Sequence record: MZ234030.1
Source: Escherichia phage vB_EcoM-CHD16UKE1
Direction: 5' to 3' (one strand)
DNA length: 64,000 nt
The notes under the pieces were generated by a model. That model saw only the letters and a list, made by a program, of their open reading frames with translations, ran no database searches and was not told where the DNA came from. The position numbers and the translations under genes were made by a program. Each line of letters starts with the position of its first letter. Within the stretch, counting starts at the first letter, position 1. This document shows positions 31,367 to 32,208 of this stretch, piece after piece.

Positions 31367-32208
31367 TTATACTCTTGGACCATATATTACTCCAACATTT
31401 TGCCAAGTTGGAGCAGATCCTATGACAGCATAACCTGCTGCTCCTCCTGCACCAACCTTTAGAACTTTACCACCATCAGACCAGGCATTTTGTCCATTTC
31501 CTCCGGCATCGCCGCCCTGGCCAGAGTGAGCATTTCCGTATTGGTAACCACCTCCTGGGGCGACGTATGAAGCTGCGCCACCTGAGTAACCACCGCCACC
31601 ACCTGGGCCAAATGGTCTTCCGCCGCCACCACCAATATCTTGCCAGTCTGCCCCTGAGTGAACACGGTAAGCAATGCCGCCACCACCGCCTCCGCCACCA
31701 CAGATTACTCCACCATTGTTAATTCTTAATCGTCCACCAATGTCGTTTTGAATACAATGCCCGCCTTGTTGTCCATTACCATCTCCACCGGAATGAGTCC
31801 ATCCACCTTGTCCACCTCTACCCCACATATGAGCGCCAATAATATTTAACTGAACATATTCATTTGGTGTATCTCCGTACATGAAGAATAAAGGAACATC
31901 TTTAGAGAACATATTCATTTGGTGTATCTCCGTACATGAAGAATAAAGGAACATCTTTAGAAATCACCTGTAATATTAAACACTATAGGTGCATTACCTG
32001 CCTCAAAACATCTATCTCGGAACCATTGACCATTGAAGTTATGGTCTGCTCCAAGCGTGTGAATAATTTCTCGTGAGCGACCTGCAAATTGACTCATCCA
32101 GCAAGGAACACCCAATCTTAATTGACCAGCCGCTTGACTCATCCAGCGCTGTCCTGTTTCATTTGCGGCTGAACTTCCAATCCAACCAGGAACACCAACT
32201 ACTGCCAT
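31367..32208 (-). pseudogene. 38: Tail-fiber adhesin gp38 (T2-type, glycine-rich) disrupted: 83-aa N-terminal ORF (31957-32208) and 195-aa C-terminal ORF (31367-31954) in different frames
   Basis: N-terminus [13 protein letters not shown]..., glycine-rich motifs in C-terminal ORF; frames break at a 55-bp tandem duplication. Confidence 0.7.
31853..31962. repeat. Perfect tandem direct repeat, 2 x 55 bp (unit GAACATATTCATTTGGTGTATCTCCGTACATGAAGAATAAAGGAACATCTTTAGA on + strand)
   Basis: Two identical adjacent copies read directly from the sequence; coordinates may be off by 1. Confidence 0.9.

What the first reader, a model, noticed from the sequence alone, without database searches (positions are those of the whole stretch)
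31367..32208. Tail-fiber adhesin gene 38 is split exactly at a perfect 55-bp tandem duplication
Seen in sequence: the T2-type adhesin (N-terminus [22 protein letters not shown]..., glycine-rich C-terminal half) exists as an 83-aa ORF and a 195-aa ORF in different frames. At the break is a perfect head-to-tail duplication of a 55-bp unit (about 31853-31907 and 31908-31962). The 195-aa ORF begins inside it: its first residues [16 protein letters not shown] are one copy read out of frame, followed by the second copy read in frame ([17 protein letters not shown]). 55 is not a multiple of 3, and by my frame arithmetic deleting one copy still does not rejoin the two ORFs, so a second small indel is implied. 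Established knowledge: gp38 of T2-like phages is the receptor-recognising tip of the long tail fibre, and host-range variants often arise by duplications in the fibre tip genes. Inference: this is either a genuine adhesin-defective or host-range-altered genome, an intermediate of repeat expansion, or an assembly or sequencing artefact at a repeat.
Basis: partly seen in the sequence, partly recalled or inferred. Interest (0 to 1): 0.75.

Follow-up and report, generated by a model that had tools for sequence, protein, structure and literature searches.

The report
Assembler k-mer leftover splits adhesin gene
The "split" tail-fibre adhesin gene is almost certainly an assembly mistake: a 55-base overlap that the SPAdes assembler leaves at the ends of a circular contig was never trimmed, so the real phage very probably has an ordinary intact gene.

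Summary
The biology is very probably not real. The window comes from Escherichia phage vB_EcoM-CHD16UKE1 (MZ234030), a wastewater isolate with a 42-43% plaquing host range, assembled with SPAdes. 55 is a SPAdes k-mer size. Three other records from the same study carry perfect tandem duplications of exact k-mer length at unrelated sites: G3G7 (127 bp, splitting gene 37), 101118B1 (55 bp, splitting gp16) and 101117UKE2 (55 bp). The last two phages are otherwise identical and each lacks the other's duplication. Removing one copy and restoring the 11 bp gives a 798-nt gene identical to gene 38 of four sibling phages. Neither abnormal junction occurs in 268 related phage records or in IMG/VR. The missing 11 bp fit a graph bubble at the contig end, as does a unique base beside G3G7's duplication. 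This suggests, without proving, a minority deletion haplotype or a library error. Low interest, apart from flagging four GenBank records that need correction.

The parts
31852..31906 (-). Copy 1 of the perfect 55-bp unit (coding strand TCTAAAGATGTTCCTTTATTCTTCATGTACGGAGATACACCAAATGAATATGTTC). One of the two copies is the genuine gene segment encoding S88-V105 of gp38; which one is arbitrary.
31907..31961 (-). Copy 2 of the 55-bp unit, 100% identical and head-to-tail with copy 1. Read as the untrimmed SPAdes k = 55 contig-end overlap.
   Evidence: same-pipeline parallels; literature
31961..31962 (-). Site where 11 bp present in all intact relatives are missing (coding strand TAGTATCATAT; + strand ATATGATACTA, with 2 nt of placement ambiguity). 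It directly abuts the duplication.
31957..32208 (-). ORF 1, 83 aa plus stop: gp38 residues 1-82 plus F, ending at a TAA created by the junction. Identical to GenBank QZI80779.1 of phage vB_EcoM-CHD16UKE1.
31367..31954 (-). ORF 2, 195 aa plus stop: 16 out-of-frame residues from the first copy, then gp38 residues S88-V265 in frame (glycine-rich receptor-binding part).
31367..32208 (-). Gene 38 as recorded (842 nt). After removing one copy and restoring the 11 bp it is 798 nt (265 aa) and 100% identical in nucleotides to gene 38 of CHD2BS1, G3F8, G3G7 and PM107.
32245..35232 (-). Gene 37 (distal long tail fibre, 995 aa), intact here. Its segment 34495-34621 is the 127-bp unit duplicated in sibling record G3G7, which serves as the comparison case.
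30679..31335 (-). Holin gene t (218 aa) immediately downstream, giving the canonical g37-g38-t order of T-even phages.

Best explanation
The 55-bp tandem duplication is not in the phage. A de Bruijn graph assembler such as SPAdes writes a circular or circularly permuted genome as a linear contig whose last k bases repeat its first k bases. Here the final k was 55. The ends were joined without trimming, and the genome was then rotated to the study's common start point. That moved the untrimmed overlap to an internal position, which happened to lie in gene 38. The 11 missing bases right beside it belong to the same junction. The best-fitting reconstruction is that the graph had a bubble at this spot, with an intact branch and an 11-bp-deleted branch. 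The contig ended at the bubble's merge vertex after following the deleted branch. The deleted branch could be a minority haplotype in the lysate or a library or PCR error. The infectious phage very probably carries an intact 265-aa gp38 identical to that of its siblings. Shown: the duplication, the 11-bp gap, the k-mer-length parallels in sibling records, the exact repair, and the phage's infectivity as published. Inferred: the order of assembly steps, the bubble, and a polishing step that explains one base.
For: (1) The source is phage CHD16UKE1: ORF 1 equals QZI80779.1 on a 168,543-bp contig, which is MZ234030 in Table 1 of PMC8614997. (2) That paper used SPAdes 3.13.0/3.14.1 on MiSeq reads, with Geneious for read mapping. 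(3) The repeat length is exactly 55, a SPAdes k value, with 100% identity and no extension on either side. (4) Other records from the same study show the same lesion at unrelated places. G3G7 has a 127-bp x2 repeat splitting gene 37 into two annotated CDSs, and it is a clean duplication of window 34495-34621. 101118B1 has a 55-bp x2 repeat at 30940-31050 splitting gp16, and relatives are exactly 55 bp shorter there. 101117UKE2 has a 55-bp x2 repeat at 6391-6500. 101118B1 and 101117UKE2 differ by 1 mismatch in 44.5 kb, yet each lacks the other's duplication. (5) The three full-length small records fetched all start at base 1 of a CDS, so they were re-oriented after assembly. (6) Repair gives a 798-nt ORF 100% identical to four siblings. 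The window is otherwise identical to PM107 from about 27.6 to 32.7 kb. (7) The lesion is unique: all matches among 268 related phage records need two pieces, and neither junction has an exact hit in IMG/VR (the intact-junction control was found). (8) Phenotype: clear plaques, 42-43% plaquing host range, best kinetic host range among the four myovirus ancestors, normal myovirus morphology by electron microscopy. By established knowledge of T2-type phages, that does not fit a null adhesin. (9) Damage next to the junction recurs: the base abutting G3G7's duplication is a T found in no sibling, exactly where a SNP bubble's merge vertex would be. (10) For the window, the bubble model reproduces the observed 842 nt with one base different, and that base is the one true reads would correct to the observed C. 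(11) The artefact is documented for SPAdes phage and plasmid contigs (PMC12007190, PMC7372960, PMC8851603).
Against: No reads were available, so copy number was not measured directly. The other three duplications are clean, whereas this one comes with an 11-bp loss. The strict bubble model misses the observed sequence by one base and needs an assumed polishing step. The source record itself was not in the searchable collection, so its start point and annotation could not be inspected. The test using progeny phages is not decisive, because the two main parents are identical from 29987 to 33945 apart from the lesion. If the assembler followed the deleted branch, that haplotype may not have been rare.
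Confidence: 0.87

Rival explanations
1. The duplication is an artefact, but the 11-bp deletion is real and is the majority allele in the sequenced stock. Most packaged genomes would then carry a frameshifted, adhesin-null gene 38 (83-aa product), kept going by trans-complementation from intact co-infecting genomes or arising late during amplification for the DNA preparation.
For: The assembled path lacks the 11 bp. The bubble model needs reads with the deletion. With the duplication removed the gene still stops at residue 83. Both T-even contig breaks in this study fall in g37/g38 within 2.6 kb of each other, which suggests real tail-fibre heterogeneity in the lysates.
Against: The phage plaques on 42-43% of test strains and had the best kinetic host range of the ancestors. 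A null adhesin cannot be the majority in a stock propagated from plaques. No other record or IMG/VR contig has this deletion junction. All five progeny phages with this allele have an intact gene.
Confidence: 0.08
2. The whole lesion (55-bp duplication plus 11-bp deletion) is a real mutation in the phage genome: a spontaneous rearrangement in the fibre-tip gene that gives an adhesin-defective or host-range-altered phage.
For: The sequence as deposited shows it.
Against: The length equals the assembler's k-mer, and three sibling records from the same pipeline show the same kind of lesion in unrelated genes, including two otherwise identical podoviruses with different duplication sites. There are 0 nt of homology at the copy junction. 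The change is out of frame (net +44). It lies in a conserved segment (residues 84-105), not in the variable loops. It is unique among all relatives. The phage is fully infective.
Confidence: 0.03
3. The split is real and functional: gp38 is made as two polypeptides. The N-terminal fibre-attachment piece (83 aa) and the C-terminal receptor-binding piece would be expressed by termination-reinitiation (TAA-AG-ATG) or from the GGAG-N9-ATG inside the first copy, and would assemble non-covalently.
For: The stop of ORF 1 and the ATG of ORF 2 are 2 nt apart, and a GGAG lies 9 nt upstream of an in-frame ATG (sequence). Together the two ORFs cover all of gp38 except 4-5 residues.
Against: Everything that argues against a real duplication applies here too. 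In addition, the break falls inside the single Pfam GP38 domain (profile positions 36/40 of 218), not at the Gp38_N/GP38 boundary near residue 42-47. No natural split gp38 was seen among the 155 and 132 cluster members.
Confidence: 0.02

Closest known systems
Untrimmed SPAdes k-mer overlap at the ends of a (pseudo)circular contig
   Same: The repeat length is exactly an assembler k value (55). The two copies are perfectly identical and head-to-tail. The assembler was SPAdes. The phenomenon is described for phage contigs (127 bp; PMC12007190, PMC7372960) and for k = 55 (PMC8851603). Three other records from the same study show it (127, 55 and 55 bp).
   Different: The overlap is normally seen at the two ends of a linear record. 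Here it is internal, because the genome was rotated after joining. It also comes with an 11-bp loss immediately beside it, which a plain overlap does not produce and which needs a graph bubble or junction error as an extra explanation.
T2/S16-type gp38 long-tail-fibre tip adhesin (Pfam PF21721 Gp38_N + PF05268 GP38; PDB 6F45 chain D, 9V85)
   Same: Both Pfam domains are present, the glycine-rich C-terminal half is present, and the gene sits between gene 37 and holin t. After repair the gene is 100% nucleotide-identical to the 265-aa gp38 of CHD2BS1, G3F8, G3G7 and PM107.
   Different: As written in the record, the reading frame is interrupted after residue 82.
Natural host-range duplications in T-even tail-fibre adhesin genes (recalled from memory: Tetart et al. 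1996, T4 gene 37; not checked with the tools)
   Same: A tandem duplication within a fibre-tip gene.
   Different: Those are in frame, lie in the receptor-recognition region and add a functional domain. This one is 55 nt (net +44, out of frame), lies in a conserved segment upstream of the glycine-rich motifs, and creates an immediate TAA stop.

Membership tests
SPAdes contig-end k-mer overlap artefact | Repeat length equals a k value used by the assembler (21/33/55/77/99/127) | tested here: met
   Period 55 exactly, with no extension on either side. That 55 is a SPAdes k value comes from my own knowledge and PMC8851603.
SPAdes contig-end k-mer overlap artefact | The two copies are 100% identical and directly adjacent | tested here: met
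   100% matches, 0 indels, 2.0 copies; string equality.
SPAdes contig-end k-mer overlap artefact | The genome was assembled with SPAdes and handled as circular or re-oriented | tested here: met
   SPAdes 3.13.0/3.14.1 plus Geneious are stated in PMC8614997. The three full-length small records fetched start at base 1 of a CDS, and the T-even records fetched have gene 38 at nearly the same coordinate. The window's own record could not be fetched.
SPAdes contig-end k-mer overlap artefact | The same lesion recurs at arbitrary positions in other genomes from the same pipeline and is absent from near-identical genomes | tested here: met
   G3G7 127 bp; 101118B1 55 bp; 101117UKE2 55 bp. The last two are otherwise identical. 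G3A1 is 55 bp shorter than either.
SPAdes contig-end k-mer overlap artefact | Removing one copy restores the sequence of the relatives | tested here: not met
   Removing one copy alone leaves an 11-bp deficit and a stop after residue 83. Exact identity needs the 11 bp restored as well. For G3G7 and 101118B1, removing one copy is enough, apart from one adjacent base in G3G7.
SPAdes contig-end k-mer overlap artefact | No sequencing read spans the copy-to-copy junction | not testable with these tools
   No reads are available. The split ORFs occur only in the NCBI record and not in Logan or ENA assemblies.
T2/S16-type gp38 adhesin | Gp38_N (PF21721) and GP38 (PF05268) domains | tested here: met
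   ORF 1: Gp38_N at 1.1e-20 and GP38 profile positions 1-36. ORF 2: GP38 profile positions 40-218 at 1.1e-46. Intact sibling: both domains full length.
T2/S16-type gp38 adhesin | Sequence homology to structurally solved gp38 | tested here: met
T2/S16-type gp38 adhesin | A single uninterrupted ORF of about 260-266 aa between gene 37 and holin t | tested here: not met
   Two ORFs of 83 and 195 aa in different frames as recorded. Gene order is met. The ORF is uninterrupted only after repair.
Natural host-range duplication in fibre-tip genes | In-frame duplication that yields a longer functional adhesin | tested here: not met
   55 nt and net +44 nt; a TAA stop arises at the junction.
Natural host-range duplication in fibre-tip genes | Located in the variable receptor-recognition segments | tested here: not met
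   The unit encodes residues 88-105 ([18 protein letters not shown]). This stretch is identical in JK08 and nearly identical in the 9V85 gp38, upstream of the glycine-rich region.

The most novel reading that the evidence does not exclude
The recorded sequence is literally true, and CHD16UKE1 infects with a two-piece adhesin: an 83-aa fibre-docking fragment and a separately translated receptor-binding fragment. The second fragment would be made by reinitiation at TAA-AG-ATG or from the GGAG-N9-ATG created by the duplication, and the two would assemble non-covalently on the gp37 tip. A milder version is more likely, at roughly 0.2-0.3. In that version the lysate really contains an 11-bp-deleted, adhesin-null gene 38 haplotype common enough to enter the assembly graph, and tail-fibre heterogeneity is why both T-even contigs in this study broke in g37/g38.
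Probability: 0.02. Interest if true: 0.6.

Novelty: not a real feature. Interest (0 to 1): 0.08.

Why it matters
As biology it does not matter much: the phage most likely has a normal gp38. It matters for data quality. At least four GenBank records from one study carry untrimmed k-mer overlaps: MZ234030 (CHD16UKE1), MZ234040 (G3G7), MZ234020 (101118B1) and MZ234019 (101117UKE2). The overlaps break or alter annotated genes, including the receptor-binding genes g37 and g38, which people mine to predict host range. Truncated proteins such as QZI80779.1 then pass into protein databases. A simple screen would catch these errors: look for perfect tandem duplications of length 21, 33, 55, 77, 99 or 127. 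If the 11-bp deletion and the G3G7 E247K base are real minority alleles, they would also show that contig breaks can point to within-lysate tail-fibre variation.

Tried and rejected
(1) Progeny test. I listed every site where the window (parent A) and G3G7 (parent B) differ between 24 and 40 kb and read PM107 at each. The hope was to show that a bred phage inherited gene 38 from CHD16UKE1 intact. The parents are identical from 29987 to 33945 apart from the lesion, and PM107 has two alleles (32718, 33576) matching neither parent, so the origin of its gene 38 cannot be assigned. (2) Fetching the source record MZ234030: it is not in the collection. (3) Looking for the reads indirectly through Logan or ENA assemblies: ORF 1 exists only in the NCBI record and ORF 2 is not in the protein collection at all. 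(4) Model A, a plain circular contig broken at the 55-mer with only intact reads, predicts 853 nt and keeps the 11 bp. It is rejected as a complete explanation. (5) The strict bubble model (model B) is one base off (T versus C at the copy junction). I keep it only with an assumed read-mapping polish, which is inference. (6) A generally poor assembly is rejected. The window has no other tandem repeat. Its differences from PM107 are clustered, as in a mosaic genome, and there are none from about 27.6 to 32.7 kb. (7) A hairpin-mediated deletion was considered: TTTAG/CTAAA flank the 11 bp. The stem is only 5 AT-rich bp and the deletion end points do not match it, so I did not pursue it. (8) Programmed frameshifting was considered. 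No relative has the split, and the junction creates an immediate stop rather than a slippery site.

Full report
**1. The observation**

Window 31852-31961 is a perfect head-to-tail duplication of a 55-bp unit (TRF: period 55, 2.0 copies, 100% matches, no indels). It is the only tandem repeat in the 64-kb window, and the match does not extend a single base on either side.

On the minus strand there is an 83-aa ORF (32208..31957, MAVVGVPGW...ITGDF*) and a 195-aa ORF (31954..31367) in another frame. The second ORF begins with 16 residues of one copy read out of frame, then continues [17 protein letters not shown]... in the gp38 frame.

**2. What the gene is and what is wrong with it**

- The two ORFs together match Pfam Gp38_N and GP38. 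ORF 1 covers GP38 profile positions 1-36 and ORF 2 covers positions 40-218.
- The intact version matches solved gp38 structures 9V85 and 6F45 chain D.
- The gene lies between gene 37 (995 aa, intact) and holin t, the usual T-even arrangement.
- Aligned with gene 38 of phages CHD2BS1 and JK08, the window is identical to CHD2BS1 at every column except one spot.

Removing one copy and restoring the 11 bp gives a 798-nt ORF. That ORF is base-for-base identical to gene 38 of CHD2BS1, G3F8, G3G7 and PM107.

**3. Where the window comes from**

- The 83-aa product is exactly QZI80779.1, "receptor recognizing protein" of Escherichia phage vB_EcoM-CHD16UKE1, on a 168,543-bp contig. That is accession MZ234030 in Table 1 of PMC8614997.
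- The record itself is not in the searchable phage collection.
- The closest genomes are phages from the same study: PM107/PM108 at 99.8% over 24 kb. From about 27.6 to 32.7 kb the window matches PM107 exactly apart from the lesion. Differences elsewhere are clustered, as in a mosaic genome. This is not a generally sloppy assembly.

According to the paper:
- CHD16UKE1 is a wastewater isolate that forms clear plaques.
- Its plaquing host range is 42% on a 79-strain panel and 43% on a 47-strain UPEC panel.
- It had the best kinetic host range of the four myovirus ancestors used for breeding.
- It has normal myovirus morphology by electron microscopy.
- All genomes were assembled from MiSeq reads with SPAdes 3.13.0/3.14.1, with read mapping in Geneious.

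In T2-type phages gp38 is the receptor-binding tip of the long tail fibre (established knowledge). A genome that is truly null for it does not fit this phenotype.

**4. The decisive comparison**

55 is a SPAdes k-mer size. SPAdes writes a circular or circularly permuted genome as a linear contig whose last k bases repeat its first k bases. Phage papers describe trimming this (127 bp; PMC12007190, PMC7372960). A 55-bp end overlap is reported for a SPAdes-family assembly in PMC8851603. If the ends are joined without trimming and the genome is then rotated, the overlap becomes an internal perfect tandem duplication of length k.

I looked for this signature in other records from the same study and found it three times:

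| Record | Phage type | Duplication | Effect |
|---|---|---|---|
| G3G7 (MZ234040) | T-even | 127 bp x2, perfect (L005:15464-15717) | Splits gene 37 into two overlapping annotated CDSs; a clean duplication of window 34495-34621 |
| 101118B1 (MZ234020) | unrelated podovirus | 55 bp x2, perfect (30940-31050) | Splits gp16; relatives are exactly 55 bp shorter at that site |
| 101117UKE2 (MZ234019) | same podovirus type | 55 bp x2, perfect (6391-6500) | Changes the start of the CDS there |

101118B1 and 101117UKE2 differ by one mismatch in 44.5 kb, and each lacks the other's duplication. A third sibling, G3A1, is 55 bp shorter than either. The three small records I fetched in full all begin at base 1 of a CDS, so they were re-oriented after assembly.

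That makes four records from one pipeline with perfect tandem repeats of 55, 55, 55 and 127 bp in unrelated genes. This is the mark of an untrimmed k-mer overlap, not of biology.

**5. Uniqueness**

- Every match among the 268 related phage records needs two pieces to cover the junction region; none covers it in one piece.
- Neither the copy-to-copy junction nor the X|U junction has an exact match in IMG/VR.
- The intact junction, used as a positive control, was found, though in only one contig. The IMG/VR null is therefore weak and the phage-record comparison carries the weight.

**6. The missing 11 bp**

The other three duplications are clean, so this needs its own explanation.

G3G7 gives a clue. 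The base directly abutting its 127-bp duplication is T. The window, CHD2BS1, PM107 and G3G7's near-twin G3F8 all have C; the change would be E247K in gp37. In a de Bruijn graph, the k-mer that starts right after a variant site is the vertex where the two branches of the bubble merge, and contigs end at such vertices. G3G7 fits this exactly.

For the window I built two models:
- **Model A:** only intact reads, an arbitrary break at the 55-mer, and a naive join. It predicts X-a-U-U-Y (853 nt) and is wrong by 11 nt.
- **Model B:** a k = 55 bubble between the intact haplotype and an 11-bp-deleted haplotype. The contig follows the deleted branch and ends at the merge vertex, followed by a naive join. 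It predicts the right length (842 nt) and differs from the observed sequence at one base (T versus C at the copy junction). In the true sequence the base following that k-mer is C, so polishing by read mapping would convert T to the observed C.

This reconstruction is inference, but it accounts for both lesions with one cause. It implies that reads with an 11-bp deletion existed, either as a minority haplotype in the lysate or as a library or PCR error. The two cannot be distinguished without reads. Both T-even contig breaks lie within 2.6 kb of each other, in g37 and g38 of a 168-kb genome. That hints at real tail-fibre heterogeneity in these lysates, but it is only a hint.

**7. Rival readings**

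- **A real duplication-plus-deletion mutation (about 3%).** It would have to match the assembler's k by coincidence. It would also have no homology at the copy junction, be out of frame, lie in a conserved segment rather than the variable loops, be unique among all relatives, and still leave a highly infective phage.
- **A functional two-piece adhesin (about 2%).** The idea is prompted by TAA-AG-ATG and a GGAG-N9-ATG within the first copy. The break, however, lies inside the single GP38 domain and not at the Gp38_N/GP38 boundary, and no natural split gp38 turned up among the cluster members.
- **An artefactual duplication plus a real, majority 11-bp deletion (about 8%).** This conflicts with the phenotype.

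**8. What did not work**

- The progeny-marker test was uninformative, because the two main parents are identical across the locus.
- The source record and its reads were unavailable.

**9. Verdict**

What it describes is an assembly and finishing artefact of a known kind. The intact 265-aa gp38 is the expected true state.

Interest is low. The practical outcome is that MZ234030, MZ234040, MZ234020 and MZ234019 contain untrimmed k-mer overlaps that break or alter annotated genes. A PCR across window 31700-32100 would settle it: 357 bp is expected, against 401 bp for the sequence as recorded.

Noticed in passing
L005:15463-15719 (MZ234040, phage G3G7; corresponds to window 34494-34621): A perfect 127-bp tandem duplication (SPAdes maximum k) splits gene 37 into two overlapping annotated CDSs (G3G7_132 and G3G7_133). 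The base immediately beside it is a T found in no sibling; it would make gp37 E247K. That is the position expected for the merge vertex of a SNP bubble in the assembly graph.
   Followed up: yes
L007:30940-31050 (MZ234020, phage 101118B1): A perfect 55-bp tandem duplication splits the internal virion protein gp16 into two overlapping CDSs. Relatives, including the otherwise identical 101117UKE2 and G3A1, are exactly 55 bp shorter at this site.
   Followed up: yes
L008:6391-6500 (MZ234019, phage 101117UKE2): A perfect 55-bp tandem duplication that is absent from the otherwise identical 101118B1. The annotated CDS there starts at 6419 instead of the equivalent of 6295, so the gene model is probably truncated by the artefact.
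   Followed up: partly
window 32245-35232 and 31367-32208 (genes 37 and 38): Both T-even assemblies from this study that carry an internal k-mer overlap broke inside the tail-fibre genes, 2.6 kb apart in a 168-kb genome. Both phages were propagated on the same host strain (CHD16). This may reflect within-lysate polymorphism in the host-range genes.
   Followed up: partly
window 32718 and 33576 (gene 37): The bred phage PM107 carries bases at these two positions that match neither main parent (the window, i.e. CHD16UKE1, nor G3G7). They could be new mutations or short tracts from the other two ancestors.
   Followed up: no
window 62082-62099: A 9-bp near-perfect tandem, GTTTCTAAT GTTTCTAAC. PM107 has only one unit, so this is an in-frame 3-codon length difference in a hypothetical protein (PM107_178 equivalent).
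   Followed up: no
window 6163-6582: A stretch of about 420 bp has no match in PM107. PM107 carries a homing endonuclease gene there instead (PM107_074, about 695 bp). The window has a 66-aa ORF at 6198-6398. This looks like a presence/absence difference for a mobile endonuclease.
   Followed up: no
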